Positions 4,910-39,831 of a DNA stretch of 64,000 bases are shown here, piece after piece. The DNA is from Magnetococcus sp. DMHC-6. GTDB lineage: Bacteria; Pseudomonadota; Magnetococcia; Magnetococcales; JADFZT01. Position 1 is the first letter of the stretch; each line of letters starts with the position of its first letter. A program made the position numbers and the translations under genes. The DNA lies in the NCBI GenBank assembly GCA_039908535.1, contig JAMOAW010000027.1, forward strand, positions 10,705-74,704, written 5' to 3'. The notes beneath the pieces are model-generated. The model saw only the letters and a list, made by a program, of their open reading frames with translations. It was not told the DNA's origin and did not search any database.

Positions 4910-5987
4910 ATCAGCTATGGAACAAGAGATAACCTTTGCCCAAGCGATCCAGGAGGGATTGCGACAAGCCATGGAGCGTTATCCAGAGGTGATGGTGATG
5001 GGGGAGGGTGTTCCTGATCCAAAAAACATTTTTAAAACCACCGAAGGCTTAAGAGCACTTTTTGGTGGTGATCGGGTTTTGGATATGCCCCTGGCGGAAA
5101 ATGGCATGACCGGGGTTTGTATTGGTTTGGCCTTATCGGGATTTCGACCGGTATTGGTGCACCAACGTGTCGATTTTGCTCTTCTTTCTATGGATCAACT
5201 GATTAATAATGCCGCTAAATGGCACTATGTGTTTAATGGTCAGGTCACGGTTCCCCTGGTGGTGCGTTTATTGATTGGTCGCGGTTGGGGGCAAGGCCCC
5301 CAGCATGCGCAAAGTTTGCAGGCCTTGTTTGCGCATATTCCTGGTTTAAAGGTGGTGATGCCAACAACGCCTCGGGATGCCAAGGGGATGTTGATTCGGG
5401 CCATTTGTGACAATAATCCGGTGTTGTTTTTAGAGCATCGCTGGCTGCATGGTTTAAAGGGGAGGGTGCCTATGGGATATTATGAGACCTCTTTAGATCA
5501 AGCGCAGATTTTGCGTACCGGTGGTGCTGTCACGGTGGCGACCTTTTCTTATATGACGATTGAGGCCCTGGCGGTGGCAGATGTTTTGGCCGATTTTGGG
5601 GTAGAGGTTACGATTATCGACATGCGTTCGGCCCGACCTATGGACATGCAACCGGTTTTGGCCTCTCTTCAAAAGACGGGACGGTTGCTTGTTTTGGATA
5701 CGGGTTGGGCTTCGTGTGGGGTGAGTGCTGAATTATTGGCTCGTGTTGTTGAGCAGGGGTTTGCCTCTCTACGTTGTCCCCCATTGCGTATTACTTTGCC
5801 AGACCATCCCGTACCCACCGCTGAATATTTGACCAATGATTATTATCCCGATGGGGAAGATATTTTGCGTGGCATTCTTAAATTGGTGGATGCTGATCGA
5901 AGCTGGCCCTTGGAGGCACTTTTGCAAAGGGTGCGTTTGACTGGCCATCGGGATGTTCCCAATCCGGCTTTTGTGGGGCCGTTTTAA
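4899..5987 (+). CDS. E1 component beta subunit-like (transketolase-like pyrimidine-binding and C-terminal domains)
   Basis: The ORF track starts at 4848. The ATG at 4899 (MQSESAMEQEITFAQAI..GEGV) overlaps the alpha-subunit stop by 11 nt and matches typical E1-beta N-termini. Confidence 0.8.
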   Translation: MQSESAMEQEITFAQAIQEGLRQAMERYPEVMVMGEGVPDPKNIFKTTEGLRALFGGDRVLDMPLAENGMTGVCIGLALSGFRPVLVHQRVDFALLSMDQLINNAAKWHYVFNGQVTVPLVVRLLIGRGWGQGPQHAQSLQALFAHIPGLKVVMPTTPRDAKGMLIRAICDNNPVLFLEHRWLHGLKGRVPMGYYETSLDQAQILRTGGAVTVATFSYMTIEALAVADVLADFGVEVTIIDMRSARPMDMQPVLASLQKTGRLLVLDTGWASCGVSAELLARVVEQGFASLRCPPLRITLPDHPVPTAEYLTNDYYPDGEDILRGILKLVDADRSWPLEALLQRVRLTGHRDVPNPAFVGPF

Positions 5988-7040: not shown

Positions 7041-7292
7041 TCTGGGTGGGCGGAGAACCGCCCCCCAGACCCCCTCTTTTTTTTAAGTCTTAAAAAAAAG
7101 AGGGGGTCTGGGGGATTCATCCCCCAGGGTTTTGATTTTGTAACCGTTCAGATAAAAAAATCAAAAACAAGACCTTGGGGGATTGCATCCCCCAACCCCC
7201 CTGCTATTTGAAGAAAGCAAAACCGAATTCAAAAGCAAAGTCAAAAGCAAAGTCAAACCCCTGGGGGCAATCCCCCAGACCCCTTTTTTTTA
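7041..7292. repeat. Hairpin-repeat locus R4 (core A-B-C followed by an E-D-C' element)
   Basis: Core at 7041-7135. 7166-7285 (aagaccttgggggattgcatcccccaa ... ctgggggcaatcccccag) is the reverse complement of the C'-D-E stretch seen in R5, R6 and R9. Confidence 0.9.
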
Positions 7293-22554: not shown

Positions 22555-22750
22555 GATATAAATAAAAATAAAAAATTAAGACCTTGGGGGCGGAGAACCG
22601 CTCCCAACACCCCCTTTTTTTTTTTTATTAAAAAAAAAAAGGGGTCTGGGGGATTGCCCCCAGGGTTTTGCTTTTGCTTTTGACCTCGGTTTTGCTTCCT
22701 TCAAAAAGCAGGGGGATTGGGGGATGCAATCCCCCAAGGTCTTGACTTTG
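22552..22750. repeat. Hairpin-repeat locus R6 (A-B then C'-D-E)
   Basis: aagaccttgggggcggagaaccgctcccaa..T13..A11..ggggtctgggggattgcccccaggg..ttgacctcggttttgcttccttcaaaaagcaggggg attgggggatgcaatcccccaaggtcttgactttg. Overlaps the 3' end of the hslR ORF. Confidence 0.9.
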
Positions 22751-30870: not shown

Positions 30871-31281
30871 TTAAGGGGTCTCTGCGGGGATCAGGTGGTA
30901 TTCCCGCAGTTTGGCTAATAAATGGCTGCGTATGATCGGTTTGGTTATATAATCGGTGCATCCTCCTTTGAAGAAGGCCTCCACCACCTGTTTTTCGGTA
31001 TCTAGGGCACTGACGATAAAGATGCTCGTCTCTTTGGAACCGGAGTACCCTTTCTCTTTTTCAAAGGCACGCATGGCAAACAGTGCCTCTTGGCCATTCA
31101 TGATAGGCATCATAATATCTAATAAAACAAGCTGATAAGGGGTTTTATCTTCTATGGCTAATTGAAAAATTTCGAGGGCTTCTCGACCATCTTTGGCAAA
31201 GTCATACTCTCCGAAAGGGGCCATGATTTGTGCTAGAACCTGTCTGTTGTTTTTTTCATCATCGACGATTAATATTTTCAT
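30871..31281 (-). CDS. Single-domain response regulator (CheY-like receiver)
   Basis: MKILIVDDE...LVLLDIMMPIMNG...KP receiver pattern. ATGA overlap with the upstream kinase. Confidence 0.85.
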   Translation of the reverse strand: MKILIVDDEKNNRQVLAQIMAPFGEYDFAKDGREALEIFQLAIEDKTPYQLVLLDIMMPIMNGQEALFAMRAFEKEKGYSGSKETSIFIVSALDTEKQVVEAFFKGGCTDYITKPIIRSHLLAKLREYHLIPAETP

Positions 31282-33755
31282 TTTTTTAAATCATTTTCCA
31301 GTTGGTGACACCATTTAAGAATATCGGGCTTGTTTTCTTTACGAACCGCCATCAAAAGACGTAAAGCCGTTTTAGACAAGTTTGGGTCTTCTAAATGTCC
31401 GACCATCTCTTTTGTGGTTTCTATTTCTTTGGTAAGGAGCTGCCAATCCCCCTTTTCTAAAGCTTGTTGCACGAAGATTAATTGATTTGCGATTTGAATT
31501 CTAGGGGGCGTATCAGAGAGGATAGATCTTTGTTCTGAGTGGATCGTGGTATCCAGATCAATTGTGCTTGGGCAGAGGATCATTTTAAGGTTGAGGGTCA
31601 AGCGCAAGATACGTTGTAACTCTTCTGGTCGGTATGGTTTAAAAATAAAATCGTTTGTCCCTGCCTGTCGAGCAAAGGTATTAAATGTGAGATGAGAAGA
31701 GGTTCCAATGATGGGAATGTTCGCAGGACAAGTGGATATTTGGCCAGATCGAATGGATTTTATGGTATGTAGACCATTCATTTCTGGGAGAGAGAGATCT
31801 ATCAGAAGAAGGTCGAAGGGTTCTGATTGTAGAAGGTGTCGGGTCTCTTGGCCATGGGAACAGGTATTGAGTTGATATCCTTTGATGGTTTGTAAGATTG
31901 ACAAGGCATGTTCACGGTCGTGAGGATGGTCATCTATGATGAGAATTTTAATCGGTTTGGTGGTGTATGATGGTAAGAGATGCCAATGAAAATTTTTTGC
32001 ATGAGAAGGTAAGGGGGTATTTTGAAAAATTTCATTGATGGTATCTATGAGACATAGTGGAGAGATGGGCTTGATGAGCGTGCGGGCGATCCCCAATTTT
32101 TCAGATAGAAGCAAATCATTTCGACGATGGTTGCCGGGCAATAAAAGTAGAATGGGTATGATTTGGTTCGAAAGATGGTTGAGATATTCTGCCAATTTGA
32201 CACCATTGCATTTTGGCAAACGACAATCCAACACAATGAGATCAAAATAAGGTTTGTTGTATTGAATGGCATTTTCTATAAGTTGCAACACGTCATACCC
32301 ATCGTTAGCCTCGACGATTTGCCCTCCAAACAGGGACAGTGTGCGGGAGAGTATTTTGCGGCTATTGGGATTGCCATCGGCGAGCAGAATATTTAGGCCA
32401 AAAAATTGCACTGCACTGGAAAGATAGGTTTGATTGAGGGGGTGAGAGCTGGGTTGGAAATCGACCGTAAAATGGAAGCGGCTTCCTTGCCCCTCCTGGC
32501 TTTCTACCCAAATGTTTCCCCGCATTTTTTCAACAAAACGTTTGCAAATAGCCAGTCCAAGCCCACTACCACCATATTTTCGGGTGGTGCTGCTGTCGGC
32601 CTGGATAAATTCTTCAAAGATGATTTGTTGTTTGTCAAAAGGAATACCAATGCCAGTATCGTGAATTTGAAAATAGAGGCACCATGGGAAAATATCTAAC
32701 TCTTTGCTCTCGTCCAAACTGACCAGGAGGGTGATTGTGCCTTTTTCGGTAAATTTAATGGCATTACCGATTAAATTGAGTAAAATTTGCCTTAATTTTG
32801 TCGGGTCACTGATGACTCGAATGGGCAGTTTAGGGTCGAGTGAGCAAATAAATTCGAGATTTTTTTTGTGTATTTGCGCAATTAAAACGGCACAACTCTC
32901 CCAGATCAACTTGTGAAGATCAAAATCGATCTGTTCAAATTCCATTCCCCCTGCATCAAATTTTGAGATATCCAAAATAGAGTTGAAAATGTGTAATAAG
33001 GTATTTCCAGATTGAACGACAATTTCTAGATTTTGTCTCTCCTGACTGGTCTGGGCGGTATCCAAAAGAAGGTCAGACAAACCGATAATGGCGTTTAAAG
33101 GGGTGCGGACTTCGTGACTCATGGTGGCTATAAAAATATTTTTTTTATGCAAAGCCTGCTCGACAGACTCTTTGGCTTGGCGCAGTTCATGGGTGCGCTC
33201 TTCTACGATGTGTTGGAGGTGATTGCGATGTCTTAAAAGTTCTATTTCGGCATGTTTGTGTTCAATAATGCCTGCTAGGGCGTGGACGATCATGGTGAGA
33301 TAGGTCTCGATTTCAGCATTCTGGATATGATTGTGTTCCACATACAAATTGAGGAGGCCAAGCATTTTTCCTTTTGACATCAGAGGATAACAATAATGAC
33401 CATGATTTTTAATGCCTTTAAACGAGATGTGATGCTGATCATCTAAAGCGTTTTTAAAAACCATCTCTTGCTTTTGGGCGGCAATACCACACAGGCAGGT
33501 GCCAAAGGGAATGCGTGCGCAGGCTTTTAGAAGATGATTATCTAGTCCAATATGGGTGACCATTTTCAAAACGTGCGGCTCTTGGGAATCGATTAAAAAG
33601 AGGCTTCCCTTGGCAAGCAAGGTCAACCAGTCGTTGGAAAGAATGAGTTGCAGGGCCTTTTCCATGAGTTCTTCTAAGCTGTAAGGCTCTAAAGCTAGTT
33701 CCAACAATTGGCTGACAACGACCAGGGCTTGTTCACGTCTTTCTTGATGGATCAT
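31278..33755 (-). CDS. Hybrid sensor histidine kinase (GAF - HisKA - HATPase - REC - REC)
   Basis: GAF-type FGTCLCGIAA, H-box MSHEVRTPLNAIIG, G2 box GGSGLGLAICKRF, and two receiver-like segments. Confidence 0.85.
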   Translation of the reverse strand: MIHQERREQALVVVSQLLELALEPYSLEELMEKALQLILSNDWLTLLAKGSLFLIDSQEPHVLKMVTHIGLDNHLLKACARIPFGTCLCGIAAQKQEMVFKNALDDQHHISFKGIKNHGHYCYPLMSKGKMLGLLNLYVEHNHIQNAEIETYLTMIVHALAGIIEHKHAEIELLRHRNHLQHIVEERTHELRQAKESVEQALHKKNIFIATMSHEVRTPLNAIIGLSDLLLDTAQTSQERQNLEIVVQSGNTLLHIFNSILDISKFDAGGMEFEQIDFDLHKLIWESCAVLIAQIHKKNLEFICSLDPKLPIRVISDPTKLRQILLNLIGNAIKFTEKGTITLLVSLDESKELDIFPWCLYFQIHDTGIGIPFDKQQIIFEEFIQADSSTTRKYGGSGLGLAICKRFVEKMRGNIWVESQEGQGSRFHFTVDFQPSSHPLNQTYLSSAVQFFGLNILLADGNPNSRKILSRTLSLFGGQIVEANDGYDVLQLIENAIQYNKPYFDLIVLDCRLPKCNGVKLAEYLNHLSNQIIPILLLLPGNHRRNDLLLSEKLGIARTLIKPISPLCLIDTINEIFQNTPLPSHAKNFHWHLLPSYTTKPIKILIIDDHPHDREHALSILQTIKGYQLNTCSHGQETRHLLQSEPFDLLLIDLSLPEMNGLHTIKSIRSGQISTCPANIPIIGTSSHLTFNTFARQAGTNDFIFKPYRPEELQRILRLTLNLKMILCPSTIDLDTTIHSEQRSILSDTPPRIQIANQLIFVQQALEKGDWQLLTKEIETTKEMVGHLEDPNLSKTALRLLMAVRKENKPDILKWCHQLENDLKK

Positions 33756-33997: not shown

Positions 33998-36172
33998 ATG
34001 ACTATGATAAAGAACGAAGATGAAAAGCCTAAGCTGTTGTTGGTGGATGATATGGTGGCCAACATTATGATGTTGCATGAGGTGTTGAAGGATGATTACC
34101 ATACCTATTTTGCTAAAGATGGGGTGTCTGCTCTGAAAGCCGCAGAGGATCGTTTACCTGATCTTATTTTGTTGGATATACATATGCCTGGCATGGATGG
34201 TATGGAGGTGTGCAGGCGTTTAAAGGCGGATTCGCAAACAGAGCGGATTCCCATTATTTTTATTACCTCTCTCTCCGAAACCCAAGATGAAACCGCTGGA
34301 TTAGAGTTGGGGGCGGTGGATTATATCACCAAGCCTTTTAATCCGACTGTTGTGCAACTTAGAGTCAAAAATCACATTGCTTTAAAAAAATATCAGGACC
34401 ATTTGGAAGAGTTGGTCCTGGAACGAACGGCCAAACTGCAAAAGGCCAAAGAGGAGGCCGAGTCGGCGGATCGCGCAAAAACCAAATTTTTGATGATCAT
34501 CAGCCACGAATTGCGTACCCCATTAAACAGCATTATTGGATTTTCTGAAAGTTTGTCCACTGTGTTGCAAGGGGAATCCAAAGAGTTGGCCGGGATGATC
34601 TATGACTCTGGAGTAAAATTAAATTCTATGGTTGGGAATATCCTGGATTTGGTCAAGTTGGAAAGTCAAAAGGTGCCCCTTGCCTGTCAACCTTTCCATG
34701 TCCGAGAATTGGTGCAGCAAACGGCTCGGCAGGTAGAAATGAAATATCAAGAAAAAGGGCTTGTTTTTGAAAGCGCATGTGCATTGGACGTTCCTGAATT
34801 TTTGCAAGGAGATGAAAAACGAATTCGGCAAGTACTCGGTCATTTACTGGATAACGCTTTTAAATTTACGGACAAGGGATCGGTCTATGTAAAAGTGGAA
34901 CGGGGACATGGGGAGGGGTATCGGGATCAACTGGTTTTTTCGGTTGAAGATACTGGTATTGGGATTCCCCAGGAGAAGTTAGATGACATATTTGGTTTTT
35001 TTACAATGTTGGCCGAGGATATGTATACCCAGCATAAGGGCGGGATCGGTATTGGTTTGGCGATTTGTAAAAGTGTTGTCAAACTTATGAATGGAAAAAT
35101 TTGGGTGAGCAGTAGGTCCACTGGTAGTGTGTTTTCTTTTTCTGTTTTATCTAAGAGTCGTTTGTTATGTCTGTTTGTATTCGGATTGATTGTGGGTGGT
35201 TGGCAAGGGGGGGCCGTTGCGGAAGATTCCTTGCGCGGACCGGCCTTTTCCGATCCAAAACAGCTCACCCCTATGCCAGAAGAGTGGCAAAAAAAGCCGA
35301 TTGAGTACGATGCCGAGGCCAAAAAGCTGCAAGCCGATGTGGTTATCACCCTGGATCAAGAGATTTTTTTGATGTTGGGCGACAAAATTATGGATTATGG
35401 CAAGAAAAAAGGGATTAAAATTGTTAATCAAGAGGGGACCTGCGGGATCTCAGACGGTTTTATGTTGAAAAAACAGGTAGATTTAGCGGGTTATTGTTGT
35501 GCACCAAGTACGTCGGCCCGTCTACCCACCCTCACGTATCGTACTCTTGGTATTGCCGCAAAGGTCTTTATCGTGCATCCCGATAATCCCGTCAATAACC
35601 TGACCGTAGAACAATTGCAAAAGATATATCAAGGCGAGTATGCCCGTTGGTCAGAGGTGAAAGGCTTGGAGGGAGCTCCCAATATTCCCATTCATGTCGT
35701 TGGTCGTCTCCATTGCAAGTTGCGCCCCGGTCATTGGCGTCTTCTGCTGGATTATGAAAATATGTTTAGTCCGCGCATGAAAGAGGTCAGCACCATTCCA
35801 GATGTCATCGCCGAAGTGATGGGTAACCCTGGTTCTATTGGGTATGATACCATGACCAATATCCTTCGTTTTCAAAAAAAGGATCACCCCCCCAAGGTTT
35901 TGAGAATGGAGGGGCAGACTCCTCATGATCTCGATGCCATTGCCAATTTGCGTTATCCTCTCTATCGGACGTTGGAGCTGGCCTCCTGGGAGGGCGAGGG
36001 GGTACGTAATCGTTACGTGGATGATTTAGAAGCTTTTATGTTGAAAGAGGCTGAATCTCTGGATCCAGAAAAATTTAGTTTTGTTCCCGCTTCCCTGATG
36101 CGTAAAACCGGTTGGCAGTTTGTGGGTGATGAAGCCGTGGGAGAACCTCCGGTTCAGAAAAATCAAAAATGA
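33998..36172 (+). CDS. REC - HisKA - HATPase protein fused in frame to a signal-peptide-like segment and a PstS-like periplasmic binding domain
   Basis: Receiver (LLVDD..LILLDIHMPGMDG). H-box ISHELRTPLNSIIG. GIGIGLAICKSVV..GSVFSFSV. Then SKSRLLCLFVFGLIVGGWQGGAVA|EDS. Then the PBP motif LTVEQLQKIYQGEYARWSEVKG. Confidence 0.8.
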   Translation: MTMIKNEDEKPKLLLVDDMVANIMMLHEVLKDDYHTYFAKDGVSALKAAEDRLPDLILLDIHMPGMDGMEVCRRLKADSQTERIPIIFITSLSETQDETAGLELGAVDYITKPFNPTVVQLRVKNHIALKKYQDHLEELVLERTAKLQKAKEEAESADRAKTKFLMIISHELRTPLNSIIGFSESLSTVLQGESKELAGMIYDSGVKLNSMVGNILDLVKLESQKVPLACQPFHVRELVQQTARQVEMKYQEKGLVFESACALDVPEFLQGDEKRIRQVLGHLLDNAFKFTDKGSVYVKVERGHGEGYRDQLVFSVEDTGIGIPQEKLDDIFGFFTMLAEDMYTQHKGGIGIGLAICKSVVKLMNGKIWVSSRSTGSVFSFSVLSKSRLLCLFVFGLIVGGWQGGAVAEDSLRGPAFSDPKQLTPMPEEWQKKPIEYDAEAKKLQADVVITLDQEIFLMLGDKIMDYGKKKGIKIVNQEGTCGISDGFMLKKQVDLAGYCCAPSTSARLPTLTYRTLGIAAKVFIVHPDNPVNNLTVEQLQKIYQGEYARWSEVKGLEGAPNIPIHVVGRLHCKLRPGHWRLLLDYENMFSPRMKEVSTIPDVIAEVMGNPGSIGYDTMTNILRFQKKDHPPKVLRMEGQTPHDLDAIANLRYPLYRTLELASWEGEGVRNRYVDDLEAFMLKEAESLDPEKFSFVPASLMRKTGWQFVGDEAVGEPPVQKNQK

Positions 36173-36190
36173 GATGGGTTACATTTTAAG

Positions 36191-36430
36191 GTATCGGAAA
36201 AATAAAAAATCAAGACCTTGGGGGCGGAGAACCGCCCCCAACACCCCCACCCTTTTTTTTTATTAAAAGAAAAAAGGGGGCTGGGGGAGTGCCCCCAGGT
36301 TTTTTTTTTGACTTTTTACCCGAAGGGCATCATGTATGAACCAAGAGCTTGGGGGGGCGAATCTCCTCTGAAACAACCGGGGGCCCCCCAATCCCCCCTT
36401 TTTTTTGCTTAACTTATTTAAAAAAAAGAG
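36191..36430. repeat. Hairpin-repeat locus R8 (core A-B-C + F + second degenerate A-B)
   Basis: gtatcggaaaaataaaaaatcaagaccttgggggcggagaaccgcccccaa ... ttacccgaagggcatcatgtatg ... cttgggggggcga..ccccccaatcccccc-T9..A8gagg. Confidence 0.9.
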
Positions 36431-36441
36431 GTTTAAATTCC

Positions 36442-39400
36442 ATGTTGGATGACTTTTCTGGCCCGGTTCGATTGCCGCGACTTTCCATCTTTTGGAAAAT
36501 GATGTGGATTAATCTGCTGGTGGGTGGGGTCTCTTTTGTTATTATCTTTGCTTGGCAGTCGCAGTTTTCAGAGTTTTTTTTTCAGGAACATCTGCGCGAT
36601 GAGTTGGAAGTGCAAGGCAAAATTCATCGGTCGGATTTTGATCATCGTGTGCGGACGTTGATGAGTGCCATGGCCATCTATGCCGACCACACGAATTTAT
36701 ATCGTTATTTGAGTCAACGCCTAACGACCGGTGCGCAAAAGTCACCGGTCGTAGTCCATCGTCGTTTGCCTGCTTGGATGCCGCCCGCCTCGTTGGTGCG
36801 GGCGATTACCCAGCCCACCTTTTTGTTGTTAACCGATGCCGAACAACATCTCCAAGAATTGTATCGCAATGGGGATGAGGCGACTACTCCCGATTTTATT
36901 TCCTTACTCGCCACCCCTTTGGCGTATTATACGGTTGGCAAGATGACCATGCTTGGGGATGTGGCCAGCCTTATTGTTGCGAAAGAGGTTCGGGATGAAA
37001 ACGATCGACTGTTGGCCTATTTGGTCAGTATTACCTATTTGGATGATTATTTTTTGAAAGAGGCTTTGCAAATTTCTGAAGATGGACCTATCGCGCTTCT
37101 GTGGAACAATGCAACCCAAAAAATAATTGCCAGTAGCGATCCCAGTCGTATCCATGCAGGTATGGCGGTGGGGGAGATTGAGGAGCGGTATTATCTGGTT
37201 AAGAAAAATTTTTTTGACGATGCCTCGGATCTTCTTGTGACTTTTGCTTCTGGTGTGGTCAAGAAAGCGGAAGACGAGCAGGTGCAACGCTTGAAGGGTC
37301 AGTTTAGTCGTTTTAGCCTTTTATTGGAAGCTGCTTTTATTTTTGTCTCTTTATTGGTCACCTTTTCGATCTCTTTTGGAATTCGTCGGTTAACGCACCA
37401 TGTGATTGGATATACACAGCACTCTTTAGACTCTTTTGTTGGTTGCCAAATGGATGTGGCCCCGTTTCGGGGCTGGAAAGAGTTGATTGAGTTGGCTATG
37501 AGTTTTAATTTATTGACCAACCGCTTGCGGGAGAAGCATCTCACCCAGGAGCAGTTGATGGGGGAATTACATCAAGCCAAAGTCACGGCCGATGCGGCCA
37601 ATCGTTCCAAGTCGGAATTTTTGGCCAATATGAGCCATGAAATCAGAACGCCGATGAACGCCATTATTGGTTTGGGCCATTTGTTGAGTAAGACCAAGTT
37701 GACGGCTAAGCAATTTGATTATGTCACCAAAATGAGTGCCTCTTCCCATGGTTTGCTTGGGATTATCAATGATATTTTGGATTTTTCTAAGATCGAAGCG
37801 GGCAAGTTGCAATTGGAAGAGGTTGAGTTGGACCTGGATATGGTGTTGGAACAGTTGGCCAATATTATCTCCATCCGTACTGAAGAAAAAGGGTTGGAAC
37901 TTTTGTTTGATATCCATCCAGAGGTTCCGCGTCGCCTGCTAGGGGATCCGTTGCGCGTGGGGCAGATATTGCTCAATCTGGCCACCAACGCCGTTAAATT
38001 TACTCATCAAGGGGAGATAGTTGTTTTTATAAAGGTTAACTCCTGCGATGAGGAGAGGAGTACCTTGTTGTTTGGTGTTCGTGATACGGGTATTGGTCTC
38101 ACACCAGAACAACTCCAGACGCTGTTTCGTCCCTTTCAACAAGCCGATTCTTCCACAACACGCCAATTTGGTGGTACGGGGTTAGGACTCTCTATTTGTC
38201 GTTATCTCGTTGAACAGATGGGCGGTGAGATTTGGGTCGAGAGCCAACTGGGTATGGGTTCGACTTTTTATTTTACGGCACAATTTAAAAATGTGGTCCA
38301 GGCACAGCCTAGGTTATGCAAAATTTCTCCAGACTTACATGGGAATCGGGTGTTGGTTGTGGATGACAACCCTGTGGCTTTGATGGTTCTTGGTAACTAT
38401 TTAGAGGCTATGAGCTTTCGGGTCGAACGGGTCTCTTCTGGCCAAGAGGCGTTGACACAATTGGTTGAATCATATCAAAAAAATGATGTCTTTGAAGTGG
38501 TTTTTATGGATTGGAAGATGCCAGTTATGGATGGCATCCAGACCATTCAGCAGATTCGCAACCATCCTGGAATTTTTCAACCGGTCTGTATCATGGTGTC
38601 GGGTTATGGCCTTGAGGAGATGCGGGAGCGATTGGCAGAGGAGGGATTTGTCAATGGATATTTGACAAAACCGGTCACCTCTTCGCAATTGTATAACTCT
38701 ATTTTGGCAGCCATGCGTGGGGAGGATTTGACCAGAACGGGCGAGGTTGGCAGGAATTCTATTTATTTTCCCGATCCAATCCGGTTCCGAGGGGTGCGGG
38801 TGTTGTTGGCAGAGGACAATCGGGTGAATCAACAGGTGGCCATGGAGATTTTGCAAGAGGCCCAGATTCGGGTGGATATAGCGCAAAATGGCTTAGAGGT
38901 GGTGAAAAAGGTGTTTGAACAGATGCAGCCCCCCTACGATGCCATTCTTATGGATATTCATATGCCGTTGATGGACGGCTTAACTGCGACGCAAACCATT
39001 CTTGCGCGTTTTCCAAAATTTTCTACCCCTATCATTGCCATGACCGCCAGTGCCATGAAACAGGATATAGATGCCTGTTTGGCGGTGGGGATGGCGGCAC
39101 ATGTGGCTAAACCGATTGATGTGCGTCAGCTATTTGTTCTTTTGGAGCGATTTGTTGAACGCAAAGAAGAGGCCGATATTCCCTTGGATGAGGCCATTCG
39201 TCCATCCAATACGGTGGGTGGATTGGCCGAAATTTTGACTGGGGATTTTCCTGGATTGAATATTTCAGAAGGGCTTAAACGAATTTATGGCAATGAGTCG
39301 GTGTATTTGCAATTATTGCAAATTTTTCAAGATGAGGAGGCGGCAACTTCTTTAAAATTGGACCAATTGCTGCAACAAAATTTATTTGCAGACGCCGTGT

Positions 39401-39831
39401 CCGTGCTGCATGGCGTGAAAGGGGTGGCGGGAAATTTGGGGGCTTTGGATTTACAATCGGTGTCGGCTCGGTTGGAAAAATTTTTAAAATCCACTCCCCA
39501 TGCCGATGTTGACGCCCTAGTGACTTCTTTTCAGCTCTCTTTGGCCACAGTTTTGGAGAGCATCCAGAAAATTTTATTTTTGGTTAAACAAGAAAAAACA
39601 CGTAACCAAGCAGACGTGGTTTTGGATGTGGTGGAGCCATTCTCAATCGAAGGGGTGCAGAAGTTGCGTTTTTTATTGGAAAAACAGGATTTGGGCGCGG
39701 AAAATTTGTTAAATATTTTAAGGCCTGGGTTGATCGGGGCTGGATTTTCTAGGGAAGTGGATCAATTGACTAAGGCGATGGGCCAACTCAATTTTTCCGA
39801 GGCGATCCAAATTTTAGATCACATGAAATAA
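36442..39831 (+). CDS. Hybrid sensor histidine kinase (periplasmic domain - HisKA - HATPase - REC - REC - Hpt)
   Basis: AAGAGG RBS and ATG at 36442; the track start at 36349 lies inside repeat R8. H-box [14 protein letters not shown]. Two receivers. Hpt motif [13 protein letters not shown]. Confidence 0.85.

What the first reader, a model, noticed from the sequence alone, without database searches (positions are those of the whole stretch)
33998..36172. Cytoplasmic REC-HisKA-HATPase module fused in frame to a signal-peptide-like segment plus a PstS-like binding domain
The first 384 residues form a complete soluble receiver-kinase that ends in the usual ...GSVFSFSV. Without a stop codon, the frame continues into SKSRLLCLFVFGLIVGGWQGGAVA|EDS. 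This segment has the n-h-c structure of a Sec signal peptide with an AxA site (cleavage predicted at 35221/35222). It is followed by a ~315-aa domain carrying the PstS/PBP_like_2 hallmark LTVEQLQKIYQGEYARWSEVKG. Two readings are possible. (a) It is a sensor kinase with inverted topology, with catalytic domains N-terminal, one TM and a periplasmic ligand-binding domain at the C-terminus. (b) It is a recent fusion or read-through of a kinase gene and a secreted binding-protein gene, possibly still producing the binding protein from the internal GTG at 35129. I am not aware of reading (a) as a described architecture.
Basis: partly seen in the sequence, partly recalled or inferred. Interest (0 to 1): 0.65.

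Follow-up and report, generated by a model that had tools for sequence, protein, structure and literature searches.

The report
Kinase and secreted binding-protein genes fused
In one uncultured magnetotactic bacterium, a deletion of about 70-90 bases has joined a cytoplasmic signalling kinase gene to the neighbouring gene for a secreted sensor-helper protein; this is a one-off fusion of two ordinary genes, not a new kind of sensor.

Summary
Window 33998..36172 (+) is one 724-codon ORF encoding REC, HisKA and HATPase_c, then a signal-peptide-like segment, then a PstS-fold binding domain. The product is identical to a protein annotated in the Illumina metagenome-assembled genome Magnetococcus sp. 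DMHC-6.

It is not an established architecture. In every related locus examined, the kinase (380-391 aa) and the binding protein (337-363 aa) are separate adjacent genes, each PBP gene having its own Shine-Dalgarno, ATG and N-terminal signal peptide. Against the closest loci the window has one gap of about 90 nt. That gap removes the last kinase codons, the stop codon, the spacer with its ribosome-binding site, the ATG and about four n-region codons.

The internal hydrophobic segment is therefore the binding protein's own cleavable signal peptide. It has not lengthened, and it keeps the AVA|E site. The binding-protein gene always sits just upstream of a membrane histidine kinase, as in TorT/TorS or AioX/AioS, so it is probably that kinase's periplasmic co-sensor.

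Most likely reading: a real, lineage-specific fusion in which the C-terminal domain is still exported and cleaved free. An assembly artefact cannot be excluded without reads. Interest is low to moderate.

The parts
33998..36172 (+). Fused ORF, 724 aa plus stop; identical to P0121, 'MAG: ATP-binding protein [Magnetococcus sp. DMHC-6]'
34037..34360 (+). Receiver (REC) domain, aa 14-121; acidic pair D17-D18, phospho-acceptor Asp in LLDIHMPGMDG (aa 58-68), FITS and ITKPF motifs all present
   Evidence: Pfam PF00072, 87.3 bits; motifs located
34475..34666 (+). HisKA dimerisation/phospho-acceptor domain, aa 160-223; H-box SHELRTPLN at aa 169-177
   Evidence: Pfam PF00512, 56 bits
34808..35146 (+). 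HATPase_c catalytic domain, aa 271-383; N, G1, F and G2 boxes intact. Its tail is orthologous to the stand-alone kinases of L003, L007 and L012, which stop 3-8 residues after the equivalent FxFS[IV]
   Evidence: Pfam PF02518, 94.2 bits
35147..35149 (+). Junction codon TTA (L384). The point where relatives carry their last kinase codons, stop codon, 20-152-nt spacer with Shine-Dalgarno, ATG and about 4 n-region codons; gap of about 90 nt in the window
   Evidence: MAFFT DNA alignment
35150..35221 (+). Former N-terminal signal peptide of the binding protein, now internal: n-region SKSR, h-region LLCLFVFGLIVGGW, c-region QGGAVA with AVA|E. Aligns with the signal peptides of stand-alone orthologs (e.g. 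P0003 MRNYSKGRLCGQVIQGLFLLGCLVGGWQSVVA|EES)
35222..36169 (+). Mature PstS-fold (PBP_like_2 superfamily) binding domain, 316 aa; keeps 71 of 74 family columns that are at least 90% conserved
36173..36441 (.). 269-nt spacer with three G-rich hairpin plus T-run sites (36218-36241, 36281-36298, 36379-36396); relatives have 15-108 nt here
36442..39831 (+). Downstream hybrid histidine kinase (HisKA, HATPase_c, 2 REC, Hpt). Two hydrophobic segments flank a loop of about 250 aa with no Pfam hit, presumed periplasmic. Conserved neighbour and presumed partner of the binding protein; ATG 36442 has a GAGG core upstream
   Evidence: synteny

Best explanation
This is a lineage-specific in-frame fusion of two neighbouring operon genes. 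One encodes a soluble cytoplasmic REC-HisKA-HATPase kinase. The other encodes a secreted PstS-fold solute-binding protein that normally acts as the periplasmic co-sensor of the next gene, a membrane hybrid histidine kinase. A deletion of roughly 70-90 nt removed the kinase's last codons and stop codon, the spacer with its ribosome-binding site, and the binding protein's ATG and first few codons. Almost the whole signal peptide was left intact but internal. That much is shown by comparison with related loci. The rest is inferred. The binding domain can now be made only as part of the 724-aa product. The very hydrophobic h-region, with K386/R388 on its N-terminal side and E409/D410 on its C-terminal side, inserts N-in/C-out and drives Sec translocation of the C-terminal domain. 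Signal peptidase I then cuts at AVA|E and releases a normal periplasmic binding protein, leaving the kinase with a short C-terminal membrane tail. Functionally the two halves remain what they were. The binding domain does not regulate the kinase it is fused to.
For: Separate genes in relatives, with 20-152-nt spacers (599 nt in L001, with a response-regulator gene between): L001, L003, L006, L007/L008, L011, L012. L005 has a stop and a 46-nt spacer after a kinase remnant. The closest locus, L012, has a kinase 59.7% identical and a PBP 69% identical to the window's halves. The window shows a single gap of about 90 nt spanning stop, spacer, SD and ATG. All 9 stand-alone PBP genes have ATG plus a GGAG/GAGG core, and none is present before the window's in-frame candidate starts. 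The signal peptide aligns residue for residue with orthologous cleavable signal peptides and keeps the AxA site. It is the only hydrophobic segment in the protein, and its flanking charges fit N-in/C-out. Both halves look functional: all kinase and receiver motifs are present, and the PBP domain keeps 71/74 conserved columns, within the range of stand-alone members. The fusion is unique: only P0121 matches both halves among 384 proteins retrieved by three searches, including an exhaustive phmmer against 1.84 billion representatives. The genome is Illumina MiSeq data (PMC9840458), where a clean deletion of about 90 nt is not a typical error. The PBP to kinase adjacency is conserved across three phyla, matching the known SBP/sensor-kinase pairs listed in PMC8050422.
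Against: The fusion rests on one contig of one MAG. No reads, no second assembly and no close relative (better than 70% identity) are available. Export and cleavage of a domain lying behind 384 folded cytoplasmic residues is inferred from general Sec/SRP behaviour, not shown. No signal-peptide predictor was available. One in three random deletions would be in frame, so the reading frame alone does not prove selection. The intact state of the PBP half could simply mean the event is very recent.
Confidence: 0.6

Rival explanations
1. Assembly or consensus artefact, or a minority variant. The real DMHC-6 genome would have two genes, and the contig lost about 70-90 nt at the boundary (mis-join in a T-rich region, or a deletion variant within the population that won the consensus).
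For: Single MAG, single contig, one member sequence. No independent record of the protein or of the junction 45-mer. All relatives have two genes. The junction lies in T-rich sequence.
Against: Illumina MiSeq data rarely give clean multi-codon deletions. No repeat long enough to collapse an assembly graph is evident at the junction. Both flanks are in frame and colinear with the orthologous proteins right up to the junction.
Confidence: 0.17
2. The fusion is real but inactivates the binding protein. Behind a 384-aa folded cytoplasmic domain, and without its own start, the binding domain is not exported or is degraded. The locus would be on its way to losing the co-sensor while the kinase keeps working.
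For: RBS and ATG are lost. The spacer to the downstream partner kinase has grown to 269 nt with terminator-like hairpins, against 15-108 nt in relatives, which suggests a disrupted operon. In L005 the same boundary was rearranged in the other direction, with the kinase reduced to its last ~28 codons, so the unit tolerates loss of parts.
Against: There is no decay in the binding domain: 71/74 conserved columns are kept and all invariant Cys/His/Arg are present. The signal peptide and AxA site are intact. The downstream hybrid kinase is full length.
Confidence: 0.13
3. One reading: a working inverted-topology sensor. The segment stays uncleaved as a membrane anchor, the binding domain sits in the periplasm tethered to its own kinase, and ligand binding (or docking onto the neighbouring hybrid kinase) modulates or localises the N-terminal kinase.
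For: N-in/C-out topology with a large cytoplasmic N-terminal domain is feasible in bacteria (ToxR, CadC, PknB-type kinases; own knowledge). R388 to E409 leaves 20 uncharged residues, just enough to span a membrane. Both halves are intact.
Against: Not conserved anywhere else. The segment is a typical cleavable signal peptide with a 14-residue h-region and an AVA site, unchanged relative to orthologs. The link leaves the C-terminus of the ATP-binding domain, with no coiled-coil or HAMP path to the DHp helices through which histidine kinases are normally controlled (established knowledge of HK signalling).
Confidence: 0.07
4. Two products from one ORF by internal initiation. The binding protein would be translated separately from GTG 35129 (MFSFSVLSKSR...) or TTG 35162 in addition to the read-through product.
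For: In-frame GTG and TTG codons exist. A start at GTG 35129 would give a plausible 31-aa signal peptide.
Against: No Shine-Dalgarno-like core within 25 nt of any candidate, whereas all 9 orthologous genes have one. No promoter-like site near the junction. A start at TTG 35162 would give a signal peptide with no basic n-region, unlike every ortholog.
Confidence: 0.08

Closest known systems
Solute-binding-protein-dependent sensor kinases (TorT/TorS, LuxP/LuxQ, AioX/AioS/AioR, HptA/HptS, ChvE/VirA)
   Same: A signal-only periplasmic binding protein is encoded next to a membrane histidine kinase that has a periplasmic domain. The PBP-to-kinase gene order found here is conserved in Magnetococcales, Nitrospirae (there followed by a sigma54-type regulator, as in aioXSR) and Desulfobulbaceae. 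The known pairs are reviewed in PMC8050422.
   Different: The binding protein here belongs to the PBP_like_2/PstS superfamily. In that review this superfamily appears only with a chemoreceptor (PstS/CtpL), not with a sensor kinase. The ligand and the physical interaction are untested. In the window the binding protein is additionally fused to a different, cytoplasmic kinase.
PstS phosphate-binding proteins (PF12849, TIGR02136; PDB 1twy, 4exl, 1ixh-type)
   Same: Type II periplasmic binding fold. Best structural and sequence matches in the PDB. The Asp and Arg that align with PstS ligand residues are invariant (D87, R162 of the mature domain).
   Different: 15-20% identity. TIGR02136 scores far below its cutoff. 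The Ser/Thr-rich phosphate loops (GGGSGTG, AAGSGSR in 4exl) are replaced by EGTCGIS and GRLHCKxRPGHW. Four Cys (C74, C92, C93, C165) and H164 are invariant across the family. There is no pstCAB transporter next to it. Phosphate is therefore doubtful as the ligand.
BvgS/EvgS-type kinases with fused periplasmic binding (Venus-flytrap) domains
   Same: A PBP-fold domain and a histidine kinase lie in one polypeptide (own knowledge).
   Different: In BvgS/EvgS the PBP domains are N-terminal, followed by a TM helix and a helical linker into the DHp domain, and the arrangement is conserved. Here the PBP domain is C-terminal to the ATPase domain, joined through a cleavable signal peptide, and found once.
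Bitopic N-in/C-out signalling proteins with N-terminal cytoplasmic output (ToxR, CadC; PknB/PrkC Ser/Thr kinases)
   Same: The same predicted topology if the segment is not cleaved: cytoplasmic catalytic or output domain, one membrane span, extracytoplasmic sensor domain (own knowledge).
   Different: Those proteins have genuine uncleaved anchors and conserved architectures. Here the span is a recycled signal peptide with an intact peptidase site.
Natural polyproteins split at an internal signal peptide (Bradyrhizobium fbcH, cytochrome b/c1)
   Same: One ORF whose downstream part is exported and released by cleavage after an internal signal sequence. This is the processing proposed here (own recollection of Thony-Meyer et al. 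1991; not found in the searchable library).
   Different: fbcH is conserved and its upstream part is an integral membrane protein. Here the upstream part is a soluble kinase and the fusion is a singleton.

Membership tests
HisKA-type histidine kinase with N-terminal receiver (REC-HisKA-HATPase_c) | Pfam Response_reg, HisKA and HATPase_c above gathering scores, in that order | tested here: met
   87.3, 56.0 and 94.2 bits against cutoffs of 30.2, 26.9 and 26.4
HisKA-type histidine kinase with N-terminal receiver (REC-HisKA-HATPase_c) | Catalytic motifs: H-box His; N, G1, F and G2 boxes; receiver Asp, Thr/Ser and Lys | tested here: met
   SHELRTPLN, LLDNAFKFT, DTGIGI, IFGFF, GGIGIGL; VDD, LLDIHMPGMDG, FITS, ITKPF
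HisKA-type histidine kinase with N-terminal receiver (REC-HisKA-HATPase_c) | Orthology to stand-alone 380-391-aa kinases at the same genomic position | tested here: met
   59.7% identity over aa 3-383 to the L012 kinase; P0244, 391 aa, 60%; same synteny
PBP_like_2 / PstS superfamily | Pfam PF12849 above gathering score | tested here: met
   33.7 bits (35.5 for the domain alone) against 27; partial, profile positions 85-138 of 267
PBP_like_2 / PstS superfamily | Type II periplasmic binding fold closest to PstS structures | tested here: met
   AF2 pLDDT 94.7; Foldseek top hits 1twy and 4exl at E about 2e-15, then E. coli PstS
PstS phosphate-binding protein proper (TIGR02136) | NCBIfam TIGR02136 above its cutoff | tested here: not met
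   44.9 bits against 206.6
PstS phosphate-binding protein proper (TIGR02136) | Ser/Thr/Gly phosphate-binding loops conserved | tested here: inconclusive
   In the HMM alignment to 4exl, GGGSGTG aligns with EGTCGIS and AAGSGSR with LHCKxRPGH. Asp and Arg are retained, Ser/Thr are replaced by Cys/His.
PstS phosphate-binding protein proper (TIGR02136) | Genomic association with the pstCAB transporter | tested here: not met
   Neighbours are histidine kinases and response regulators in all 12 loci and in the window
Sec-type cleavable signal peptide (SPase I) | n-h-c organisation with small residues at -3 and -1 | tested here: met
   SKSR / LLCLFVFGLIVGGW / QGGAVA|E; homologous to the N-terminal signal peptides of 11 orthologs. 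No SignalP-type predictor was available
Sec-type cleavable signal peptide (SPase I) | Located at the N-terminus of the translated product | tested here: not met
   Preceded by 384 residues. No SD-supported internal start
Sec-type cleavable signal peptide (SPase I) | Actual translocation and cleavage | not testable with these tools
   Needs reporter fusions or proteomics
SBP-dependent sensor kinase module (TorT/TorS-like) | Binding-protein gene adjacent to a membrane kinase that has an extracytoplasmic domain, conserved across taxa | tested here: met
   PBP immediately upstream of a kinase in the loci that extend past the PBP gene: L001-L003, L005, L007/L008, L009-L011. L012 has an unidentified, contig-truncated ORF there. 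The window kinase has 2 hydrophobic segments around a loop of about 250 aa
SBP-dependent sensor kinase module (TorT/TorS-like) | Ligand-dependent physical interaction between binding protein and kinase sensor domain | not testable with these tools
   No experiment possible; complex prediction not run
   Only P0121 matches both halves among 384 retrieved proteins. No two-half match among the top 150 of 1.84 billion representatives
   The h-region is 14 residues and the AVA site is kept, as in the orthologous signal peptides. The junction follows the last strand of HATPase_c directly

The most novel reading that the evidence does not exclude
The fusion is real and the signal peptide is not cleaved. 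DMHC-6 would then make a bitopic histidine kinase with its catalytic core in the cytoplasm and a PstS-fold, cysteine-rich ligand-binding domain tethered in the periplasm. That domain would dock onto the neighbouring hybrid kinase and so physically recruit a second kinase to the same receptor complex. This would be a naturally occurring 'inverted' sensor kinase and a snapshot of how new receptor architectures arise by deletion between operon neighbours.
Probability: 0.07. Interest if true: 0.65.

Novelty: new variant of a known kind. Interest (0 to 1): 0.3.

Why it matters
As it stands, this mainly warns against reading a new receptor architecture into a single MAG gene model: the 'transmembrane helix' is a recycled signal peptide, and relatives have two genes. 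If reads confirm the fusion, it becomes a small natural experiment on two points. One is whether a Sec signal peptide still works, and is still cleaved, behind a 384-residue folded cytoplasmic domain. The other is how multidomain signalling proteins arise from operon neighbours. The more general lead lies outside the finding: a widespread, uncharacterised PstS-fold binding-protein family with four invariant cysteines, always paired with a histidine kinase in Magnetococcales, Nitrospirota and Desulfobulbaceae. Its ligand is unknown and is probably not phosphate.

Tried and rejected
1. Stop-codon point mutation (TAA/TGA to TTA at 35147). Rejected as the sole cause, because the spacer, SD and ATG present in all relatives are also missing. 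A PBP start upstream of a stop in the same frame is also impossible.

2. One-base indel in the T-runs. An extra T would end the kinase at the out-of-frame TAA 35152 (...SVFI*). That would leave only TTG 35162 as a PBP start, with no basic n-region and no SD, and the in-frame SKSR aligns with the n-region of P0003 (YSKGRLC). Considered unlikely.

3. Programmed frameshift or transcriptional slippage at the junction. There is no X XXY YYZ heptamer and the longest T-run is 5. Rejected.

4. Search for the same fusion elsewhere.
- Full-length word-index search.
- Exhaustive phmmer against 1.84 billion representatives.
- Local phmmer of each half against all 384 proteins held.
All found only P0121. 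Caveat: the top 150 are saturated by kinase hits of at least 324 bits, so fusions with distant halves would be missed. One search also unexpectedly failed to list P0121 itself.

5. Independent support for the junction.
- Exact-protein look-ups: nothing on record.
- A 45-nt junction scan of JGI metagenome contigs: no match.

6. GTDB genome scan for closer relatives: only one distant Nitrospiraceae locus.

7. Literature on bacterial internal signal peptides and on fbcH: nothing usable in the library.

8. Cysteine geometry in the model: the coordinates are not exposed to the scripting tool.
Full report
**Observation**

Window 33998..36172 (+) is a single uninterrupted ORF of 724 codons. Pfam places four domains above their gathering scores:
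- Response_reg, aa 14-121
- HisKA, aa 160-223
- HATPase_c, aa 271-383
- a partial PBP_like_2 match, aa 513-570

All receiver and kinase catalytic motifs are present. This is the only hydrophobic segment in the protein. It has K386/R388 before it and E409/D410 after it.

The remaining 316 residues model with pLDDT 94.7. Their best matches among solved structures are PstS-family proteins at 15-20% identity. The one qualification is that 'PstS-like' holds for fold and superfamily only, because TIGR02136 scores 44.9 bits against a cutoff of 206.6.

**Source**

The product is 100% identical to P0121, 'MAG: ATP-binding protein [Magnetococcus sp. DMHC-6]', a cluster of one sequence on one contig. DMHC-6 is a metagenome-assembled genome sequenced on Illumina MiSeq (PMC9840458).

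**Relatives have two genes**

The 120 best homologs of the C-terminal half are all stand-alone proteins of 302-409 aa. The eleven I read each have their own Met and N-terminal signal peptide. Several of the closest, at 63-70% identity, are from Magnetococcales.

I fetched 11 related loci through these homologs (L001-L003, L005-L012).
- In L003, L006, L007/L008, L011 and L012, a REC-HisKA-HATPase gene of 380-391 aa lies directly upstream of the binding-protein gene. The two are separated by a stop codon and 20-152 nt.
- L001 has a small response-regulator gene between them.
- L005 keeps only the last ~28 codons of the kinase.
- L002 has a different, larger kinase upstream.

The window's kinase half is orthologous to these stand-alone kinases. 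It is 59.7% identical to the L012 kinase over aa 3-383, and those kinases end 3-8 residues after the motif equivalent to FSFSV.

**Nature of the junction**

In a DNA alignment with L012, L005, L006 and L007, the window has one gap of about 90 nt. The gap covers the relatives' last kinase codons, stop codon, spacer, ATG and first n-region codons.

All nine stand-alone binding-protein genes start at ATG preceded by a GGAG/GAGG core. None of the window's in-frame candidate starts (GTG 35105, GTG 35129, TTG 35162) has such a core within 25 nt.

The window's SKSRLLC aligns with the n-region YSKGRLC of P0003, and the h- and c-regions align with those of all orthologs. Only about the first four codons of the binding-protein gene are therefore missing.

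The event is a deletion. It is not a stop-codon substitution or a one-base indel. There is no frameshift heptamer or long homopolymer at the site, and no promoter- or terminator-like site nearby.

**Uniqueness**

A full-length search listed only P0121 with both kinase and PF12849 domains. An exhaustive phmmer against 1.84 billion cluster representatives gave only kinase matches among its top 150, with a best score of 534 bits and no best stretch extending past residue 404. Searching each half locally against all 384 proteins retrieved found only P0121 matching both.

Two caveats apply. The top-150 list is saturated by kinase hits of at least 324 bits. And one search did not list P0121 itself, so distant or differently built kinase-PBP fusions cannot be excluded. 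A database-wide survey of domain order could not be run.

**What the pieces do**

The binding-protein gene is followed by a histidine kinase gene in every locus fetched through it where the downstream gene could be identified.
- In Magnetococcales this is a hybrid kinase of 1135-1161 aa (L001-L003, L005, L007/L008, L011). L006 and L012 break off in unidentified ORFs.
- In a Nitrospirae MAG it is a 640-aa kinase followed by a sigma54-type regulator (L009).
- In a Desulfobulbaceae MAG it is a GAF kinase (L010).

The window's downstream kinase (ATG 36442 to 39831) has two hydrophobic segments around a loop of about 250 aa with no Pfam match, followed by HisKA, HATPase_c, two receivers and Hpt. 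This is the layout of the known binding-protein-dependent sensor kinases TorT/TorS, LuxP/LuxQ and AioX/AioS, reviewed in PMC8050422. The inference is that the binding protein is the periplasmic co-sensor of the downstream kinase, not of the kinase it is fused to.

**Most likely mechanism (inferred)**

With its own start and ribosome-binding site gone, the binding domain can be made only as part of the 724-aa product. The h-region is strongly hydrophobic (11-residue Kyte-Doolittle mean 3.25), and the flanking charges favour N-in/C-out. The segment has not lengthened and retains AVA|E exactly like the orthologous signal peptides.

I therefore expect co-translational targeting, Sec translocation of the C-terminal domain, and cleavage by signal peptidase I. 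That would give a normal free periplasmic binding protein and a kinase with a short hydrophobic tail.

Both halves look selected or very recently joined. All kinase motifs are intact. The binding domain keeps 71 of 74 columns that are at least 90% conserved in the family (0.959; stand-alone members range 0.932-1.000).

**Rivals**

- Assembly artefact or minority allele, about 0.17. It rests on a single MAG with no independent record. Against it, a clean deletion of about 90 nt is atypical for MiSeq assemblies.
- Real fusion that inactivates the binding protein, about 0.13. The spacer to the partner kinase has also grown to 269 nt with three hairpin/T-run sites, against 15-108 nt elsewhere.
- Internal initiation, about 0.08. 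There is no SD.
It is feasible topologically, as in ToxR, CadC or PknB (own knowledge). But it is unconserved, it carries a cleavable-type signal peptide, and it has no helical path from the membrane to the DHp domain.

These options are not all mutually exclusive with the best explanation.

**Verdict**

The finding is real in the sequence, but it is best read as a one-off deletion fusion of two ordinary operon genes. It is a new variant of known kinds (a REC-histidine kinase, and a solute-binding protein with its sensor kinase), not a new receptor class. Interest 0.3.

The more promising lead is the binding-protein family itself. It has a PstS fold, but the phosphate-binding Ser/Thr loops are replaced by EGTCGIS and GRLHCKxRPGHW. 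It also carries an invariant Cys-Cys pair (GYCCAP in the window), and C74, C92, C93, C165 and H164 are invariant across 60 sequences from three phyla. It is always paired with a kinase, and its ligand is unknown.

Noticed in passing
window 35432-35458, 35489-35506, 35702-35746 (motifs EGTCGISDG, GYCCAP, GRLHCKLRPGHWRLL); alignment A1: The binding-protein family has four invariant cysteines plus invariant His/Arg exactly where PstS proteins carry their Ser/Thr phosphate-binding loops. It is found in Magnetococcales, Nitrospirota and Desulfobulbaceae, always just upstream of a histidine kinase. In L009 it is followed by a sigma54 regulator (aioXSR-like layout), and in L010 it sits next to ArsR/ArsP/thioredoxin genes. 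The ligand is probably not phosphate; a thiophilic oxyanion or metalloid is only a lead.
   Followed up: partly
window 7259-7283 (-), 9698-9722 (+), 22641-22665 (+), 36276-36300 (+); L003 about 5905-5935: A G-rich palindromic element, GGGGGCTGGGGGAnTGCCCCCAGG, occurs four times in the window (0.01 expected by chance). A close copy lies in the kinase-PBP spacer of Magnetococcus sp. YQC-5. It looks like a dispersed REP-like or terminator hairpin of this lineage.
   Followed up: partly
window 36173-36441: The spacer between the fused gene and the downstream partner kinase is 269 nt and holds three hairpin plus T-run sites (36218-36241, 36281-36298, 36379-36396). Nine related loci have only 15-108 nt there. 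The operon may be transcriptionally split in this genome.
   Followed up: partly
L005 1-270: In the relative whose binding protein tops the hit list (P0001), the upstream kinase is reduced to its last ~28 codons (LQLMNGKIWVEESVPSGSEFCFAIHYSE*) preceded by stop codons. The same gene boundary has therefore been rearranged independently in another lineage.
   Followed up: partly
window 30871-33755 (-): Divergently transcribed from the fused gene are a GAF-HisKA-HATPase-REC-REC hybrid kinase (825 aa) and a single-domain response regulator (136 aa). The whole neighbourhood is a dense cluster of two-component genes, as in the related MAGs.
   Followed up: no
tool behaviour, versus 12: The search with the C-terminal 340 aa did not return the 100%-identical 724-aa database entry P0121, which the full-length query did return. 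Long multidomain targets may be under-reported by that search, which limits the 'all homologs are stand-alone' statement.
   Followed up: partly
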